Positions 12,915 through 23,122 of a DNA stretch of 64,000 nucleotides are shown piece by piece. Where the stretch lies: IMG/VR virus record IMGVR_UViG_3300035698_011327, positions 12,293-76,292 of that record; one strand, 5' to 3'. Under the pieces are notes generated by a model. The model saw nothing but the letters and a program-made list of their open reading frames with translations, did no database searches and was not told the DNA's origin. This stretch comes from a virus. Each line of letters begins with the position of its first letter. Within the stretch, counting starts at the first letter, position 1. The translations under genes were made by a program, and so were the position numbers.

Positions 12915-13682
12915 ATGAAAAGAAAGAGGAGGACATGTAAATGTGGGTGTGGAGATCCAGTGAAACTAGGTGGTGATCTATTTATACCAACATTGTCGAT
13001 TAAGAAAAAGCTTGGTGAGATAGAAGAATATTATTTACATAAATATCAGGACAAGGGGATACCCCCTCTTCCAAAACTTGACCATAAAGAGGTCATTAAA
13101 GAGCTTTATATTTTCAGAGAAGCAACGAATCTCTTACACCTTAAGACTATCCTTTCAAATGAGTTCTTGTGCTTTGAAGCAGCTCAAGGTCTTATGCTTG
13201 ATCAGGACTATGGAGATTTCCCTTACGTCACTCGTTCAAAAACAGGCATCGACTATGCGGCTAATTTCTGTTCCGGTCTGGGTATCGACATAGATAAGAC
13301 GATCTATGTCACAAGAGCTTACAATACAAGACATGGTGCTGGGCCTCTTAGAGGTGAAGGAAAAATGGAGTCATTCTCAACTGGGATAGATGTAACTAAT
13401 ATCTATAATAGTTGGCAAGACAGCCTAAGATTTGCTCCGATTAATCTTGATCGGATGAGTCAAGTTATCTTAAAAGATAGGGATATTTATAATCGGTCTG
13501 AAAAGATTCGGATGATGACTCACTTAGATACGATACCAGAAGAAACAAGGTCCATCATATTTGACGATGAGATACGCCTATCGAAAGGGGCTTTCATCGG
13601 AATAGCAGAGTATGCGTACGACATTGTCTCCTATGGTCCACGTAGATGGGATGTTGAATTAACAAAAGAATTATCATTGTAA
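12915..13682 (+). pseudogene. purA: C-terminal half of an adenylosuccinate synthetase-like protein fused to an HNH-type N-terminal stub
   Basis: FEAAQGLMLDQDYGDFPYVTRS and VTRAYNTRHGAGP are PurA motifs; N-terminal GDEGKG P-loop is absent; ORF starts MKRKRRTCKCGCG like the HNH genes. Confidence 0.7.
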
Positions 13683-13693
13683 AATCTTTTTTC

Positions 13694-13752
13694 TTTACTT
13701 TTTAGGTTATCACGGTATAACTAAGTAACGAAAGAAATTTGTTCTTTGAAAA
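13694..13752 (+). promoter_or_regulatory. promoter plus rrn-type boxA antitermination element
   Basis: TTTACT-16 nt-TATAAC, followed by TGTTCTTTGAAAA at 13740-13752. Confidence 0.55.
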
Positions 13753-13754
13753 TT

Positions 13755-13962
13755 TAGACGGTACTTTGAATGCTTACACGCAAATTATAGGTTCGAATCC
13801 TATAGTCCCCACCATTTTAGCAGATTGTGGCCATGGCCACTGGCCAAACGAGTCGCCAAGCGTCTTGGCGGGCCATTTTATGGGGACTTGGCGCAATTGG
13901 TGACGCACTATCATATTGAGATAGCTTCAAAAGCAACGACAGCACTCTTGACTCACCGTCTA
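13755..13962 (+). ncRNA. Y-RNA-like module 1 containing a circularly permuted tRNA-like domain (YrlA-like)
   Basis: Closing stem TAGACGGT/ACCGTCTA; T-arm ATAGG-TTCGAAT-CCTAT and AGTCCCC-A-CCA precede GGGGACT and the D-arm. Confidence 0.7.
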
Positions 13963-13972
13963 TTACATCTTC

Positions 13973-14100
13973 TCCAGCAGTACCACTAAGGCATACATGC
14001 AAAAATAGCTCAATTGGTTGAGCATTAGACTCTTAATCTAACTGTTACGGGTTCAAGTCCCGTTTTTTATACCATACGGCCTTTATAACTCACTGCTGGA
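13973..14100 (+). ncRNA. Y-RNA-like module 2 enclosing tRNA-Lys
   Basis: TCCAGCAGT/ACTGCTGGA closing stem, TAAGGC-ATACATGC, AACTC. Confidence 0.65.
13999..14074 (+). tRNA. tRNA-Lys(CTT), weak acceptor stem, nested in module 2
   Basis: Cloverleaf: GCTC/GAGC, TTAGA-CTCTTAA-TCTAA, ACGGG-TTCAAGT-CCCGT, ACCA end; acceptor GCAAAAA/TTTTTAT has a mismatch. Confidence 0.7.
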
Positions 14101-14107
14101 AATTTTC

Positions 14108-14171
14108 GCACAGAACTTCTTGTCCATACATGCCATGGAACCGCAAACAAAGGACATATGACTCTCTGTGC
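14108..14171 (+). ncRNA. Y-RNA-like module 3 (minimal)
   Basis: GCACAGA-AC..TGTCC-ATACATGC...GGACA..GACTC-TCTGTGC. Confidence 0.65.
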
Positions 14172-14181
14172 TTCGTCTTCT

Positions 14182-14288
14182 AAGGTAGCACTCTTAGAGC
14201 ATACATGCGACCAAAGGACTCATACTCCTGCCAAAAGTGTAGGCACGCAAACCTACAGATTCATCCTGCTCTTAGGACTCGCTGCCTT
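14182..14288 (+). ncRNA. Y-RNA-like module 4
   Basis: AAGGTAGC-AC..TAGAGC-ATACATGC...GCTCTTA-G-GACTC-GCTGCCTT. Confidence 0.65.
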
Positions 14289-14326
14289 TCACATTTTATA
14301 AACCACAATCTATGAAAGGAGCAACT

Positions 14327-15799
14327 ATGACTGAAAGGGAAACGATCAGCAGAAACCAGATTGTCTCTGGCCTCCTACGCATAGGCCATGGCGACTTGGG
14401 TATCTACCAAAGCGACGGTATTGCTGCGGCTAACGAGGATGCCGAATTATTTGGGCACTTCTTGTGCTGGAACAGCAAGAACGGTGAGGTTAGAGACTCT
14501 AAGGTTGCCTTTCCTGTGTTAGCCTTGAGAGGAATAGCGGACGATGAGCTATTTGAAAATGCGGTAGCCAATCTCTGCTTACTTGACCCAAGGAATTTCC
14601 TGAGGGCAGTAACCTACCACAAATCATTACCTGTAAAGGTAACGGATGGTGGAGGGGCCTTTCTTAAAAAGGCCGTCAAGATGTACCTTAAGCATAGGCA
14701 GCATGGAGGCTTACGGAACAGCGCCCTTCTTCAGCACAGAAAATCTATGAAGGCGTTGTATGCTCTTTATCACGAAACCCCTGATCCAGTTTCACAGGCA
14801 GTTCTTTTTGATAAGAAAAAGCCTAAAGGGTCTGTCTTTGAAGCAGTAGCTAACCTTAAAGATATGACACCTACGAAAGCCGCTGGTGAAATCATGACAA
14901 AGAAGATTCCATTCCTTGTCGCTGTCGGTGCTCTTGGTGGGATCAAAGATAAACCGGACGTCATAATCGCTTTGATGGATAGGATGTCTGGTAGCGAGTT
15001 AATCAATAACACGAAATCCCTTAAGAGGATGGGCGTTTTTGAAAACCCAGTGCTTTCTGCCGCTTACGAACAAGCTTTGGAAAAAGTAAAAACGGACAAG
15101 AAAGTGTCAAGCCTTAAGGCTAGCGTTGCCGCAAAACAGGTAGGAGGCAAGGCTAAGAAGAAGATGAAGGCAGTCCAAGAGAAAAAGCTTGTTGACCTTG
15201 GAGGCATTAAAGGCGACTGGCTTGTTCTTGGAGATGCAAGTAGCAGTATGCATGCTTCTGTAGAGATTGCTAAGCAAGTTGCTGCTCTTATTTCTCAGCA
15301 AGCGTTAGGTACGGTTGACCTTATCTTCTTTAATCAAAATGTCATCAAGCATATAGATGCTACTAATAAGACTCTTGAGGAAATTGAGCACGAAGCAAGG
15401 CTTGTTAGGGCAGGCGGGATGACTTCTTGTGGCGCTGGAATCGACTATATCAAGCGTCAAGGAAGGGTTGTTAATGGTATAGCGATTATTACCGATGGTG
15501 GCGAGAATCAATGGCCACATTTTAGCGATGCATATATTGAGTATTCAGACCTGCTTGGTATAAAGCCAGCCGTCTACATGTACCACATTAGTGGTGATCG
15601 GGATACTATGAGTGTGCATTGTAAGCAGCAGCAAGTACAGACCGAGAGGTTTGAGCTTGGTCACGATGTAGACTATTACAGTCTGCCTAATCTTATTAAG
15701 ACTATGAGAGCAAACCGCTATGCTTTGGTAGATGAGATGATGGAGATTCCACTTTTAACCTTAAAGGACGTTTTTAGCGGAAACGGAAAGAGATCATAA
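14327..15799 (+). CDS. Ro60/TROVE-like protein with C-terminal vWA domain
   Basis: Helical N-terminal ~290 aa followed by vWA MIDAS VLGDASSSM, GGMT, IITDGGEN; ~490 aa, matching Ro60 architecture. Confidence 0.65.
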   Translation: MTERETISRNQIVSGLLRIGHGDLGIYQSDGIAAANEDAELFGHFLCWNSKNGEVRDSKVAFPVLALRGIADDELFENAVANLCLLDPRNFLRAVTYHKSLPVKVTDGGGAFLKKAVKMYLKHRQHGGLRNSALLQHRKSMKALYALYHETPDPVSQAVLFDKKKPKGSVFEAVANLKDMTPTKAAGEIMTKKIPFLVAVGALGGIKDKPDVIIALMDRMSGSELINNTKSLKRMGVFENPVLSAAYEQALEKVKTDKKVSSLKASVAAKQVGGKAKKKMKAVQEKKLVDLGGIKGDWLVLGDASSSMHASVEIAKQVAALISQQALGTVDLIFFNQNVIKHIDATNKTLEEIEHEARLVRAGGMTSCGAGIDYIKRQGRVVNGIAIITDGGENQWPHFSDAYIEYSDLLGIKPAVYMYHISGDRDTMSVHCKQQQVQTERFELGHDVDYYSLPNLIKTMRANRYALVDEMMEIPLLTLKDVFSGNGKRS

Positions 15800-15800
15800 G

Positions 15801-16109
15801 ATGAATGTAAATGCTATCAGATCCATCATCAGCAATATCGATGGTGGGGGAACCGACGATCTAATTCTGGCGAAACAAAATGCTCAGCTGCTTTTGACTG
15901 GGTATGAAGAGGCAAATGTCTCTGCGCCTGATTGGGTTTACGATGGGATCAACGTCCTTAAGAGGGAGATTGATCACCGTAACAAGGCTGAGCTTGAGCT
16001 TCGGCTTAAGAAATTGAAAGCCCAGAGAGAAGGCCTGTCTACTATCGCTGAGAAGCGGAAATCTGCCGACGACGAGATTGAACGCCTTCAGAAGGCACTT
16101 AATGCCTAA
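15801..16109 (+). CDS. coiled-coil protein, probably co-transcribed with the vWA protein
   Basis: Starts 1 nt after the previous stop; heptad pattern. Confidence 0.65.
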   Translation: MNVNAIRSIISNIDGGGTDDLILAKQNAQLLLTGYEEANVSAPDWVYDGINVLKREIDHRNKAELELRLKKLKAQREGLSTIAEKRKSADDEIERLQKALNA

Positions 16110-16118
16110 CCTTTTACC

Positions 16119-16140
16119 GGGGTCACCTTCGGGTGACCCC
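16119..16140 (+). terminator. cUUCGg tetraloop hairpin (terminator or stabiliser)
   Basis: GGGGTCACC-TTCG-GGTGACCCC perfect 9-bp stem. Confidence 0.55.
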
Positions 16141-16153
16141 TAAAGGGGCTTAC

Positions 16154-16933
16154 ATGGAAATCACCCTCCTAGATACAAACAATCTAGCTCAAGAATTACT
16201 CATCATGAGCAAAAATACCAGACATCTTGACGACCCTAATGTCTGGGATCAAATCTTAAAAATGTCCGAAGCAGAAAAAGCCAAAGAGCTTGAGTATGTC
16301 TTCGGCACAATCACTTCTGCTTTTGAGTTTGTAGATTATGTCTTTTTACTTAGGGACGTAACAAGAGCATTCACCCACCAAGTCGTCCGACACCGAGTCG
16401 GGACAAGCTTTGCTCAACAGAGTATGCGTGTCGCCCCGGCAGAAGCCTTTAAATATTTCGTGCCTGATGACCTTGAGAGAGATCAGTATCAGATTGCCGT
16501 CTACGATTCAACTATGATGAGCATACAGGAAGGATACAATCTCCTCCTAAATAAAGGCACAGACGTACAAGACGCACGTGGAGTACTCCCAACGAATATC
16601 TGTACGAATATACTGATGAAGATTAACCTCCGTGCTTTGGCGTTGCTTATGGAGACTCGACTCTGTATTCGTGCACAAGGTGAATTTCAACAAGTGGCCT
16701 TGGCTATGAAAGAGATCGTATCTGAAATCCATCCTTGGGCTGCTCACCTGTTGTTTCCGATGTGTGTTGCTAAAAACCACTGCCAATTTATAAATTTTAA
16801 AGAGTGTCCTTTAAAAAACAAGTATCCACACCTACAACCTATTAAAGGCGATCTCAAATCGAAAGTTGAGAATGATTGGATGAAACTAATGGAACATAAT
16901 TACTCTCCGCAACCAAAACAATCTATCATATAG
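16154..16933 (+). CDS. thyX: FAD-dependent thymidylate synthase ThyX
   Basis: HQVVRHRVGTSFAQQSMR, DARGVLP, INLRAL...RLC.RAQGE. Confidence 0.9.
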   Translation: MEITLLDTNNLAQELLIMSKNTRHLDDPNVWDQILKMSEAEKAKELEYVFGTITSAFEFVDYVFLLRDVTRAFTHQVVRHRVGTSFAQQSMRVAPAEAFKYFVPDDLERDQYQIAVYDSTMMSIQEGYNLLLNKGTDVQDARGVLPTNICTNILMKINLRALALLMETRLCIRAQGEFQQVALAMKEIVSEIHPWAAHLLFPMCVAKNHCQFINFKECPLKNKYPHLQPIKGDLKSKVENDWMKLMEHNYSPQPKQSII

Positions 16934-16941
16934 GGGGCAAA

Positions 16942-17919
16942 ATGGCAAAGAAAATGTCGATAGATGAGATGACCGATATAATAACAAACCCAAAAAGAAA
17001 GGCGATGCTCGACATAGGCTGCGGAATGAATAAGCGCAGCGAAAACCATATAGGCATAGATATTTCTGCACGTGTAGAGCCAGAGATCGTCTGTGACGTG
17101 ACGAAACAAGAACTCCCGTTTGAAGCTAATAGCATAGATGTCATTAACTCAGCCCATACTTTTGAACACTTCTCCAAAGAAGAACTCATGGTAGTTATGA
17201 ACGAGTGCTGGAGAGTGCTTAAATGGGGAGGTGAGCTTTTCATTCAAGTTCCGCATAGAGATTGTGAATTAGCAGCACAAGACCCAACCCACAAGAACAC
17301 TTTCGTTCAAAGCAGTATGAAGTTTTTCTGCGGAGACTATCTCGTTAAGTATGGCCTTGACTATCCGATCAAGTGTATCTTCCGTGAATTTATGAATACA
17401 CACGATAAGGTGCCAGGAAAAGCTCCGACATATATCACGATGATAAAATTCGGCTTAAAAAAAGACTTGAAGCATTGGAGGAAACTTGTCGGGAAATTTC
17501 CTTTTGGTGGGAAACTTAAACAGCGTGCTCTTAAGCTTGACATGGTAACAGACGTTATAAAGGAGCAGAAAAAACTCCGCTTTGATCCAGAGTGGTATAG
17601 CGATACCACTTGGAACACAAAGCATAACGTTGAATTCTCTGGTGTTATGAAGCGTACCGCTAAGCAAGCAATCAATAAGCACTTTAGAAGGATGATGAAG
17701 ATAAAGGCTGATGCGACAAAGCGGTACGGCACGAACCCTGCTCACCTTGGGGTTAAGGGTCTTTTCGCAGACCTTAACAGGAAGAATGAAAGGCTGAAAC
17801 AGTATATGTGGGAAGGTGAGAAGGTGACGTCAGAGGATATCAAAGATACGCTCTATGATAATGCTATATATTCAATATTAGCAGTCATGGAGATTGAAGA
17901 GGAGGAGAATGATGTCTAA
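16942..17919 (+). CDS. SAM-dependent methyltransferase fused to a nucleotide-modification-associated (DUF1599/Nmad1-like) domain
   Basis: LDIGCG, HTFEH, RVLKWGG, DPTH; C-terminal RYG...DLNRKNERLK...EDIKDTLYDNAIYSIL. Confidence 0.7.
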   Translation: MAKKMSIDEMTDIITNPKRKAMLDIGCGMNKRSENHIGIDISARVEPEIVCDVTKQELPFEANSIDVINSAHTFEHFSKEELMVVMNECWRVLKWGGELFIQVPHRDCELAAQDPTHKNTFVQSSMKFFCGDYLVKYGLDYPIKCIFREFMNTHDKVPGKAPTYITMIKFGLKKDLKHWRKLVGKFPFGGKLKQRALKLDMVTDVIKEQKKLRFDPEWYSDTTWNTKHNVEFSGVMKRTAKQAINKHFRRMMKIKADATKRYGTNPAHLGVKGLFADLNRKNERLKQYMWEGEKVTSEDIKDTLYDNAIYSILAVMEIEEEENDV

Positions 17920-19576: not shown

Positions 19577-19965
19577 GATTGGGATAGCGTCAGCTTCAAT
19601 GCCTTTAAGAGTCAAGGCGCAAAACAAGCTAACCCCTGAAGGTTAGTCTTGAAACAAAGTCCATGGCTCAAGGTATCAAACTCAGATTCAAATTTAGCGT
19701 GAAACCCAATAGCTTCAAGGCAGGGTTCTATAGAATTGTTGAAAGTCGATACACTACACCCTGGGTCGTGGGTTCGAATCCCTCCCCAGCCCCCAAAAAT
19801 TATGGCTGGGTAGCTCAGTGGAAGAGCAAGGGTCTTAATCAAATTGATACGACTTTTCAATATACTTCATAGACGAGCCGTCATAACTTATTACGCAATG
19901 GTTAATATCCATTAAATAAAATGACATAGACAGGGGCGGTGGCTCAAGGAATGCTACCGCCCCAT
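19577..19965 (+). ncRNA. large putative ncRNA with a circularly permuted tRNA-like domain (19758-19833)
   Basis: T-arm and CCCAGCC-CCCA precede GGCTGGG and the D-arm; enclosed by TTGAAAGTCG/CGACTTTTCAA; ends in a GC-rich hairpin at 19933-19963. Confidence 0.6.
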
Positions 19966-22935: not shown

Positions 22936-23037
22936 GTGGCAGTGGCTGAATAGAGCAGAGACTGAAGAGTGAACCTCATCTCAAAGCACTCCGTCACGGA
23001 GATCCATAAAGGTACAGGTTAAAGTCCTGTCTGCCAC
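22936..23037 (+). ncRNA. tRNA-like RNA or pseudo-tRNA with expanded anticodon/variable region
   Basis: GTGGCAG/CTGCCAC acceptor, GCT/AGC D-stem, ACAGG-TTAAAGT-CCTGT T-arm; no CCA. Confidence 0.45.
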
Positions 23038-23045
23038 TTAACAGC

Positions 23046-23122
23046 GTATCGGTAGCTCAACTAGGTAGAGCGCTGGACTCCAAACCCAGTGGTTGAAGGT
23101 TCGATTCCTTCCCGGTGCGCCA
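23046..23122 (+). tRNA. tRNA-Trp(CCA)
   Basis: CT-CCA-AA loop, G73-CCA. Confidence 0.88.

What the first reader, a model, noticed from the sequence alone, without database searches (positions are those of the whole stretch)
13694..16109. Tandem array of four Y-RNA-like 'cargo' modules upstream of a Ro60/TROVE-like vWA protein
Seen: four consecutive units (13755-13962, 13973-14100, 14108-14171, 14182-14288) share one scaffold: stem1 - AC(Y)n - stem2 - (A/U)UACA(U/C)GC - variable insert - stem2' - (G/A)ACUC - stem1'. Stem sequences differ between units but still pair: TAGACGGT/ACCGTCTA, TCCAGCAGT/ACTGCTGGA, GCACAGA/TCTGTGC, AAGGTAGC/GCTGCCTT. Inner stems are TGCT/AGCA, AAGGC/GCCTT, TGTCC/GGACA and AGAGC/GCTCT. 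The unpaired words ATACATGC and GACTC stay conserved. Inserts range from 18 nt to a whole tRNA. A promoter and boxA precede the array; a helical+vWA protein and a coiled-coil partner follow, ending at a UUCG hairpin. Established: Ro60 (TROVE+vWA) binds the stem of Y RNAs, and bacterial Y RNA genes lie next to rsr. Inference: a phage ribonucleoprotein system in which one Ro-like protein binds a constant RNA handle displaying interchangeable tRNA-like effectors, possibly decoys or repair substrates against host tRNA-cleaving defences.
Basis: partly seen in the sequence, partly recalled or inferred. Interest (0 to 1): 0.92.

Follow-up and report, generated by a model that had tools for sequence, protein, structure and literature searches.

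The report
Phage Ro60-like protein with Y-RNA array
A salt-lake phage carries four back-to-back small RNA genes that share one conserved "handle" but hold different tRNA look-alikes, directly in front of a very diverged relative of the RNA-surveillance ring protein Ro60, so this is an undescribed many-RNA branch of the known Ro60/Y-RNA particles.

Summary
Units at 13755-13962, 13973-14100, 14108-14171 and 14182-14288 share a two-stem handle: stem1, ACY, stem2, UACAYGC, cargo, stem2', GACUC, stem1'. A covariance model seeded from other phages found exactly these four in the 64-kb window. It found 149 more in 46 of 53 related loci, all on the gene's strand and almost all within 2.5 kb upstream. 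All 16 handle pairs covary.

The 490-aa protein matches no TROVE profile, but its model aligns full length with every solved Ro60 (Z 16.5-20.2). Its vWA metal-site residues are conserved. In relatives, some units align end to end with Rfam YrlA, below threshold, handle on the Ro-binding stem.

Cargo is modular. Unit 1 is a circularly permuted full cloverleaf with a capped acceptor stem. Unit 2 is a whole tRNA-Lys(CUU). Unit 3 is a short loop. Unit 4 is two hairpins. A ~100-aa helical partner follows the gene in 41 of 63 loci.

My reading is a diverged phage Ro60/Y-RNA particle. Binding, expression and biological role are untested. Phage Ro60 with Y-like RNAs is published, but I found no description of this family, handle or array. 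The same scan has reported similar systems on other DNA.

The parts
13694..13721 (+). Promoter-like site: TTTACT, 16 nt, TATAAC
   Evidence: Read. It matches 9 of 12 consensus positions but lacks the final T of the -10 hexamer, so the scan did not list it. Unproven.
13740..13753 (+). boxA-like word TGTTCTTTGAAAAT, one base before unit 1
   Evidence: The near-identical TGCTCTTTGAAAAT starts 14 nt before the first unit of close relative L060. It is not enriched across the family (9 hits on the plus strand, 10 on the minus).
13755..13962 (+). Unit 1: handle plus a circularly permuted full tRNA-like cloverleaf. The handle emerges at the variable-arm position.
   Evidence: R2 hit, 20.2 bits. Fold. 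Joining 13882-13924 to 13787-13814 in silico gives an ARAGORN tRNA-Asn(AUU) with a 7-bp acceptor stem, A73 and CCA.
13787..13814 (+). Unit 1: T arm (13787-13803), 3' acceptor strand (13804-13810), discriminator A and CCA (13811-13814)
13815..13881 (+). Unit 1: 67-nt cap that closes the acceptor stem, with two GC-rich hairpins
   Evidence: Relatives L001, L002 and L058 have a short UUCG-type cap at this place.
13882..13924 (+). Unit 1: 5' acceptor strand, D arm, and anticodon-type arm with loop AUAUUGA
13973..14100 (+). Unit 2: handle enclosing a whole, linear tRNA-Lys(CUU)
   Evidence: R2 hit, 23.8 bits. Fold.
13999..14074 (+). tRNA-Lys(CUU) cargo of unit 2. CCA is encoded. The acceptor stem is weak: G-U, a C/A mismatch and five A-U pairs. 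Its first G is the conserved G of UACAUG.
   Evidence: ARAGORN. Rfam tRNA 65.1 bits. Offset 0 from the motif's G.
14108..14171 (+). Unit 3: handle with an 18-nt loop only (the short class)
   Evidence: R2 hit, 30.9 bits. Fold. 45 of 150 units in the family are of this short class.
14182..14288 (+). Unit 4: handle with two hairpins. One has a 7-nt loop CUCAUAC, like a CAU anticodon loop. There is no T arm.
   Evidence: R2 hit, 28.5 bits. Fold. Classed 'long, neither'.
14327..15799 (+). Ro60-fold protein, 490 aa: helical-repeat ring (about residues 1-290) plus a vWA domain (about 295-470) with a MIDAS motif
   Evidence: AF2 model, pLDDT 87.3. Foldseek top hits all Ro60. VIA Z 16.5-20.2. D303, S305, S307, T366 and D390 are invariant in 32 homologues. 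No TROVE Pfam hit. AAAGGAG lies 7 nt before the ATG.
15801..16109 (+). Conserved 102-aa four-helix partner. Its start codon lies one base after the Ro-like stop codon.
   Evidence: tblastn finds it just downstream of the Ro-like gene in 41 of 63 loci. Alignment A12. AF2 pLDDT 88.
16119..16140 (+). 9-bp GC-rich hairpin with a UUCG loop and no U tract. It sits between the partner gene and thyX.
   Evidence: Read. Not listed as terminator-like.

Best explanation
This is an operon for a diverged phage Ro60/Y-RNA ribonucleoprotein. Four Y-RNA-like RNAs sit 8-11 nt apart and are most likely transcribed together. They are followed by a Ro60-fold ring protein and a small helical partner.

Each RNA has two parts:
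- A constant handle. Its 5' and 3' ends pair (stem1). A conserved internal loop follows, (Y)ACU opposite GACUY. A second helix (stem2) follows, and a near-invariant UACAYG sits at the junction.
- A variable head.

I infer that the ring protein binds the handle, as Ro60 binds the stem of Y RNAs, giving one particle per RNA. The heads are sealed tRNA look-alikes or plain loops. The handle joins the tRNA body at the acceptor end (unit 2), at the variable arm (unit 1) or, in relatives, at the anticodon stem (YrlA type). In every case the tRNA elbow, and often an anticodon loop, is displayed while the aminoacyl end is blocked. The heads would therefore bring tRNA-recognising proteins to the ring or hold them away from it, as Y RNA does for PNPase in Deinococcus. 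The likely setting is RNA surveillance or repair, or the phage-host conflict over tRNAs.

Shown here: the RNA family, its covariation, its linkage to the gene, the protein fold and the cargo types.

Inferred: binding, processing into single RNAs, the role of the partner, and the biological purpose.
For: Protein:
- Full-length structural match to all solved Ro60 proteins, including the Thermus phage phiLo Ro60.
- VIA Z 16.5-20.2 over 410-439 aligned residues, against Z about 14 for hits to the vWA domain alone.
- The MIDAS residues are invariant.

RNA:
- R2 was built without the window's units. It finds 153 units in 47 of 54 sources, all on the gene's strand.
- 147 of the 153 lie within 2.5 kb upstream of the gene. 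Spacers are often 3-15 nt.
- 91.3% of handle cells are paired, against 49% after shuffling and 31-42% with slid partners. All 16 pairs change on both sides.
- Near-invariant positions: A11, C12, U29-G34, G264-U267.

Link to Y RNA:
- Units in L016, L054 and L052 align over positions 1-114 of Rfam YrlA at 37-45 bits.
- In the L016 alignment, stem1, the internal loop and stem2 fall on YrlA's stem.

Cargo:
- Unit lengths are bimodal, 60-80 nt and 115-150 nt.
- Permuted, linear and short classes all occur.
- Unit 1 is a permuted cloverleaf.
- Clamped tRNAs have odd anticodons in 10 of 22 cases, against 9 of 241 free tRNAs (Fisher 1e-7).

Other evidence:
- The partner gene is conserved in 41 of 63 loci, while the other neighbouring genes are not.
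- Precedent: phage Ro60 genes with adjacent Y-like RNAs are published (PMC4201824, PMC12135203).
Against: - No member of the protein family matches the TROVE profile. Identity to solved Ro60 proteins is only 13-16%.
- The window's own units get no YrlA hit. Relatives stay below Rfam's gathering score of 69 bits.
- The conserved handle bases differ from the metazoan Ro-binding helix and from the CGAA motif used for phiLo.
- Binding to the handle is not shown, and no RNA data exist for this phage.
- Alignment A11 was fitted to the model, which inflates the pairing counts somewhat.
- Seven loci with the gene show no unit at E 0.05.
Confidence: 0.8

Rival explanations
1. tRNA maturation or storage cassette. 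The handle is simply the paired leader and trailer of phage tRNA precursors. The Ro-like ring chaperones or gates their processing. RNase P and 3' trimming then release the cargo as working tRNAs.
For: - Unit 2 scores as well as the phage's free tRNAs (65 bits). It encodes A73-CCA, and its +1 base is the conserved G that follows a U.
- Unit 1 keeps a 7-bp acceptor stem, A73 and CCA.
- M. smegmatis YrlA is cut by RNase P and then receives CCA (stated in 10.1101/312249, citing PMC4201824).
Against: - 45 of 150 units carry no tRNA-like cargo.
- Permuted cargos have loop-closed acceptor stems.
- Only 25 of 150 units have CCA before stem2', and only 12 of those follow a helix that starts at the motif.
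- Clamped tRNAs have unusual anticodons far more often than free ones.
- Unit 2's acceptor stem is weak.
- ARAGORN's predicted tRNA start ranges from 8 nt before the motif's G to 5 nt after it.
Confidence: 0.13
2. The handle is a processing or stability element of the phage's tRNA region, for example an RNase III or RNase E site, that happens to lie near the vWA gene. The protein has another ligand.
For: These phages carry many tRNAs around the locus. No binding data exist.
Against: - None of the window's seven other tRNAs has the handle.
- Units sit directly upstream of this gene, on its strand, in 46 of 53 related loci. The other neighbouring genes are not conserved.
- The protein has the fold of the one protein family known to bind such stems.
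Confidence: 0.05
3. A type III toxin-antitoxin-like module: tandem RNA repeats upstream of a protein that they neutralise.
For: Only the layout fits: an RNA array followed by a protein gene on the same strand.
Against: - The units are not near-identical repeats. They share structure and short motifs only.
- The protein folds as Ro60, not as a ToxN-type endoribonuclease.
Confidence: 0.01

Closest known systems
Bacterial and mycobacteriophage Rsr (Ro60) with YrlA/YrlB Y RNAs (Rfam RF02553; Chen et al. 2014, PMC4201824; YrlA structure, 10.1101/312249)
   Same: - A ring protein with a vWA domain is encoded beside its RNAs.
- The RNAs have a stem formed by their 5' and 3' ends, with an internal loop, plus a head that mimics tRNA in T-acceptor-D order.
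- Long (YrlA-like) and short (YrlB-like) RNAs occur together.
- Some units of this family align across the whole YrlA model.
   Different: - The protein is invisible to the TROVE profile.
- The handle has its own conserved bases: (Y)ACU/GACUY and UACAYG.
- R2 finds up to 7 units per locus, against the 1-2 RNAs named for Salmonella and phiLo.
- Heads also include whole linear tRNAs, and permuted cloverleaves that keep an anticodon arm and carry the handle at the variable-arm position.
- A conserved ~100-aa partner is present instead of RtcB.
Thermus phage phiLo Ro60 with Yrl1 and Yrl2 (PDB 9KOP, 9L5Y; PMC12135203)
   Same: It is phage-encoded, the Y-like RNA genes lie just upstream of the gene, and it is among the best structural matches.
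   Different: - phiLo has two RNAs, defined by a CGAA bulge and with no tRNA cargo described.
- phiLo Ro60 was found as a Ro60 homologue by a UniProt search (PMC12135203). This protein reaches no TROVE profile and no PDB sequence hit.
Metazoan Ro60 with Y RNAs (PDB 1YVP)
   Same: The fold is the same (Z 19.8). The RNA is modular, with a stem for Ro and a loop for effectors. GACU occurs on the 3' strand of the stem (my own reading of hY RNA sequences, from memory).
   Different: The conserved bulged helix GGUCCGA/UUGACU is absent. The heads are tRNA-like.
Band-7-associated tRNA and the RtcB RNA-repair loci (Burroughs and Aravind 2016, as cited in 10.1101/312249); ROT/TROVE proteins of jumbo phages (PMC7824862)
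   Same: A tRNA-like RNA is encoded beside an RNA-binding or repair protein, in a setting of conflict over RNA.
   Different: No RNA ligase, kinase or phosphatase is conserved beside this cassette.

Membership tests
Ro60 / TROVE proteins | Match to the Pfam TROVE profile (PF05731) | tested here: not met
   No hit at E 0.1 for the window protein. No hit at E 0.01 for any of the 32 homologues. No hit in the six-frame search of the phage record.
Ro60 / TROVE proteins | Helical-repeat ring followed by a vWA domain, matched over the full length | tested here: met
   Foldseek E 1e-10 to 2e-7 and TM 0.58-0.64 to 9KOP, 9L5Y, 1YVP, 2NVO and 9NEN. VIA Z 16.5-20.2, 410-439 residues aligned, rmsd 4.1-5.3.
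Ro60 / TROVE proteins | MIDAS motif (DxSxS ... T ... D) in the vWA domain | tested here: met
   D303, S305, S307, T366 and D390 are invariant in alignment A1.
Ro60 / TROVE proteins | Binds the stem of Y RNAs and takes single-stranded RNA ends in the central hole | not testable with these tools
   Needs EMSA, RIP or a solved structure.
Y RNA, YrlA type (Rfam RF02553) | Reaches Rfam's gathering score of 69 bits | tested here: not met
   The window's units get no YrlA hit at E 10. Units in relatives score 37-45 bits.
Y RNA, YrlA type (Rfam RF02553) | Long stem formed by the 5' and 3' ends, interrupted by a conserved internal loop or bulge | tested here: met
   Folds. Covariation at all 16 pairs. 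The topology maps onto the YrlA stem.
Y RNA, YrlA type (Rfam RF02553) | Head that mimics tRNA in the order T arm, closed acceptor stem, D arm | tested here: met
   Met for unit 1, which has an extra anticodon arm and a 67-nt cap, and for at least 32 units in relatives. Not met for units 2-4, which are a linear tRNA, a short loop and two hairpins.
Y RNA, YrlA type (Rfam RF02553) | Encoded next to a Ro60 gene | tested here: met
   147 of 153 units lie within 2.5 kb upstream on the gene's strand.
Y RNA, YrlA type (Rfam RF02553) | The known Ro-binding sequence on the 5' strand of the stem | tested here: not met
   The conserved bases here are (Y)ACU, UACAYG and GACUY. They are not the YrlA consensus AUGCu or the CGAA motif of PMC12135203.
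tRNA (cargo of unit 2) | Cloverleaf above the Rfam tRNA threshold, with a standard anticodon loop | tested here: met
   65.1 bits against a threshold of 29; loop CUCUUAA.
tRNA (cargo of unit 2) | A free, stable acceptor end that can be charged | tested here: inconclusive
   CCA is encoded. However, the stem is G-U, a C/A mismatch and five A-U pairs, and it is enclosed by the handle. Processing is unknown.
Type III toxin-antitoxin | Near-identical tandem RNA repeats and a ToxN-type endoribonuclease | tested here: not met
   The units share only structure and short motifs. The protein has a Ro60 fold.

The most novel reading that the evidence does not exclude
The particles are baits in the fight over tRNAs. 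Each handle presents a sealed tRNA body whose anticodon loop changes quickly between phages (CAU, CUU, UGA, CUA, UCA, AUU, AAU and others) and which cannot be charged. Host anticodon nucleases or other tRNA-targeting defence enzymes would be soaked up or sensed by these decoys. The Ro ring and its helical partner would then protect the cut RNA, hand it on for repair, or degrade it. That would make Ro60/Y RNA a programmable counter-defence platform, with one protein reading a library of swappable tRNA heads.
Probability: 0.2. Interest if true: 0.85.

Novelty: new variant of a known kind. Interest (0 to 1): 0.62.

Why it matters
What the tRNA-like head of bacterial Y RNAs binds is still unknown, and so is the purpose of phage Ro60. 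This family gives that question a much richer data set:
- A protein family of about 630 clusters at 50% identity that carries no functional name in the sources searched.
- Arrays of several RNAs per locus.
- One handle joined to tRNA bodies at three different positions.
- Anticodon loops that are kept but vary.
- A third, conserved protein component.

The invariant handle bases give direct mutational targets for binding tests. The natural variety of heads predicts which part of tRNA shape matters: the elbow and the anticodon loop, not the acceptor end. The finding also shows that TROVE profile searches miss a large part of Ro60 diversity in phages.

Tried and rejected
- MAFFT alignments of units from different loci (A2-A7) put the two strands of the stems out of register. 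I could not use them as seeds, so I seeded the model from two units of one locus (A8) and iterated.
- The genome search on the phage's own record with R2 returned nothing, although the direct search finds the four units. I treat that blank as a limit of the tool's first look.
- Complex prediction for the Ro-like protein with the 102-aa partner gave no verdict (score 0.00).
- The look-up of sequencing runs listed no RNA holder, only salt-lake DNA runs.
- Sequence searches of the PDB with the protein and with its profile found nothing.
- For the partner, Pfam, PHROGs, the ESM Atlas and Foldseek gave nothing usable.
- I considered that every unit might be an RNase P minihelix with a 3' NCCA. I dropped this as a general rule: 25 of 150 units have CCA, and 12 have it after a helix that starts at the motif.
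- I considered boxA as a family feature and rejected it.
- GenBank phages hold one relative only, in an unannotated huge phage. No cultured host is known.
- The type III toxin-antitoxin reading is rejected (see the rival explanations).
I did not test this.
Full report
THE OBSERVATION

The layout is: stem1 (7-9 bp), ACY-rich strand, stem2 (4-5 bp), WUACAYGC, cargo, stem2', 3-5 nt, (G/A)ACUC, stem1'. Minimum-free-energy folds of each unit recover both stems, with z-scores of -2.5 to -3.3 against shuffles.

The word WTACAYGC is not over-represented in the window as a whole: 5 matches against 5.9 expected. But four of the five lie within 435 nt on one strand. By my estimate chance would give that about once in a million windows.

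IS IT A REAL RNA FAMILY?

I collected 63 phage loci that encode a relative of the downstream protein. A simple descriptor search required the motif, NACTY and a complementary stem1. It gave 56 hits on the gene's strand, 6 on the other strand and 11 in shuffled sequence. When I also required stem2, which the search had not used, the counts were 32, 0 and 3.

I then built a covariance model from two units of locus L006 (A8, R1). I searched with it and rebuilt the model from the 24 best hits, none of them from the window (R2).

R2 finds 153 units at E 0.05 or better in 512 kb searched on both strands. All are on the gene's strand.

Forty-seven of 54 sources have units, up to 7 per locus by R2. 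Of the 153 units, 147 lie within 2.5 kb upstream of the gene. Neighbouring units are often only 3-15 nt apart, and 8-11 nt apart in the window. L006 is the one locus where the array lies downstream of the gene.

On the 150-row alignment, 91.3% of cells are paired. That compares with 49% after shuffling partners and 31-42% with partners slid by 1-3 columns. All 16 pairs show changes on both sides, and 970 cells do. The alignment was fitted to the model, so these figures lean high. Even so, the descriptor search and the strand asymmetry do not depend on that fit.

The family consensus runs as follows: variable stem1, then Y-A-C-U, then G opening stem2. Next come U-A-C-A-Y-G (96-100% at five of the six positions, with 82% U and 18% C at Y), the cargo and an A-rich linker. 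Stem2' closes on C and is followed by G-A-C-U-Y and stem1'. The two loop strands could form A-U, C/C and U-A with a bulged G. That pairing is my own reading, not a result.

THE PROTEIN

Pfam sees only a weak vWA domain. PHROGs gives a weak hit to phrog_850, 'RNA-binding protein'. Neither the sequence nor a 32-sequence profile finds any PDB entry.

The family is large and has no functional annotation. A word-indexed search finds 353 relatives. An exhaustive search finds 630 clusters at 50% identity. GenBank phages hold one relative, in an unannotated huge phage.

An AlphaFold model from alignment A1 has pLDDT 87.3. Foldseek's 12 best PDB matches are all Ro60: Thermus phage phiLo, Xenopus, human and Deinococcus Rsr. 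They cover the full length, with E 1e-10 to 2e-7 and TM 0.58-0.64. VIA-align gives Z 16.5-20.2 with 410-439 residues aligned. Matches to the vWA domain alone reach about Z 14. The MIDAS residues are invariant.

No member matches the TROVE profile. The protein therefore has the Ro60 architecture but fails the sequence definition of the family.

THE LINK TO Y RNAs

Rfam finds nothing but the tRNA in the window's array. In relatives, however, units of this family align over positions 1-114 of the YrlA model at 37-45 bits, below the gathering score of 69.

In the L016 alignment the correspondences are:
- stem1 falls on YrlA's terminal stem.
- The (Y)ACU strand falls on its AUGCu loop.
- stem2 falls on its second helix.
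- GACUY falls on its AaAcUuG strand.

The handle is therefore the topological counterpart of the stem that carries the Ro60 binding site in Y RNAs (10.1101/312249), with different conserved bases.

Phage Ro60 genes with adjacent Y-like RNAs are already published. Chen et al. report 22 phages (PMC4201824). Thermus phage phiLo has Yrl1 and Yrl2 just upstream of its gene (PMC12135203). Jumbo phages are noted to carry ROT/TROVE proteins (PMC7824862). I found no description of this protein family, this handle or such arrays in the papers I could search.

THE CARGO

Unit lengths are bimodal, 60-80 nt and 115-150 nt. A rough motif-based classification of the 150 units gives:
- 45 short units without a T arm
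- at least 32 permuted (T arm before D arm)
- at least 25 in linear tRNA order
- 30 with a T arm only
- 17 long units with neither arm

The window's four units are these:
- Unit 1 is a circularly permuted, complete cloverleaf. Joining its two halves in silico gives an ARAGORN tRNA-Asn(AUU) with a 7-bp acceptor stem, A73 and CCA. A 67-nt insert caps the acceptor stem, and the handle leaves the body at the variable-arm position. Close relatives L001, L002 and L058 have the same design with a short cap and loops CUCUAAA, CUCAUAA and CUUGAAA.
- Unit 2 is a whole tRNA-Lys(CUU) of 65 bits, clamped at its acceptor end. That stem is unusually weak.
- Unit 3 is an almost empty handle, comparable to the short YrlB next to YrlA in Salmonella.
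- Unit 4 carries two hairpins. One has the loop CUCAUAC.

The handle thus joins a tRNA body at the acceptor end, at the variable arm or at the anticodon stem. The elbow is kept each time, and the aminoacyl end is closed or enclosed.

tRNAs inside units have unusual anticodons in 10 of 22 cases, against 9 of 241 free tRNAs in the same loci (Fisher 1e-7). 'Unusual' here means A34 other than ACG, stop-reading, or an irregular loop. Several of the nine free exceptions lie beside arrays. The loci are related and the numbers are small, so I treat this as a lead, not a proof.

THE REST OF THE CASSETTE

The 102-aa gene starts one base after the Ro-like stop codon. tblastn finds it just downstream of the Ro-like gene in 41 of 63 loci. 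The other neighbours (a PurZ-like gene, thyX, a methyltransferase) are not conserved. Its model is a confident four-helix protein with no informative match.

The promoter-like site and the boxA-like word are plausible but weak. The UUCG hairpin at 16119-16140 has no U tract and sits just before thyX. It looks more like a stabilising or processing element than a terminator.

MECHANISM

My best-supported reading is a Ro60/Y-RNA type particle (confidence 0.8). The ring binds the handle, and the heads present tRNA shapes to other proteins. The comparative facts are shown. The binding, the processing and the purpose are inferred.

The main rival is that the clamps are precursors from which working tRNAs are released. 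That rival explains unit 2. It does not explain the short units, the closed acceptor stems, the rarity of CCA or the odd anticodons (0.13).

A decoy or bait role against tRNA-cleaving defences fits the sealed ends and the variable anticodon loops, but it is untested (about 0.2).

STANDING

This is a new variant of a known kind.

This scan has already reported similar phage Ro60-like genes with handle-RNA arrays on other DNA. One of those reports describes the same trio of array, ring protein and small helical partner. My results agree with those notes. I tested the claims on this locus myself.

Noticed in passing
window 19742-19859 (+): A YrlA-type permuted tRNA mimic: T arm, closed acceptor stem, D arm, on a 7-bp terminal stem. 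It is the best Rfam YrlA hit in the window (45 bits, below the threshold of 69). It lies 4 kb downstream of the Ro-like gene, lacks the UACAYG/GACUY handle and is not found by R2.
   Followed up: partly
window 22936-23099 (+): A weak tRNA hit with a large internal insertion (34.6 bits, 22936-23038) overlaps a weak YrlA hit (24 bits, 22990-23099). Both lie just before or over tRNA-Trp (23046-23122). This may be another tRNA-derived RNA.
   Followed up: no
window 12915-13682, 16133-16933, 16942-17919 (+): Nucleotide-metabolism genes flank the cassette. There is a short adenylosuccinate-synthetase-like gene, hitting phrog_1211 (a PurZ-type family) over its middle part only. There is also thyX, and a methyltransferase with a faint DUF1599 'nucleotide modification' tail. 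Together they may point to modified DNA bases in this phage.
   Followed up: no
L044 15-430 (+): A related phage carries a permuted tmRNA gene (Rfam tmRNA_permuted, 101 bits) about 1.8 kb upstream of its handle-RNA array.
   Followed up: no
L006, L023, L026, L034, L048, L054 (several places): Related phages encode tRNAs with stop-reading anticodons (UUA, CUA, UCA), both inside and outside the handle units. Some of these phages may therefore read a stop codon as sense.
   Followed up: no
L003, L008, L033, L035, L036, L056, L062: Seven sources with the Ro-like gene show no R2 unit at E 0.05. L008 still has three WTACATGC words upstream, and L035 has only 266 nt of upstream sequence. Diverged handle variants probably exist.
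   Followed up: no
window 16119-16140 (+): A perfect 9-bp GC-rich hairpin with a UUCG loop and no U tract lies between the partner gene and thyX.
   Followed up: partly
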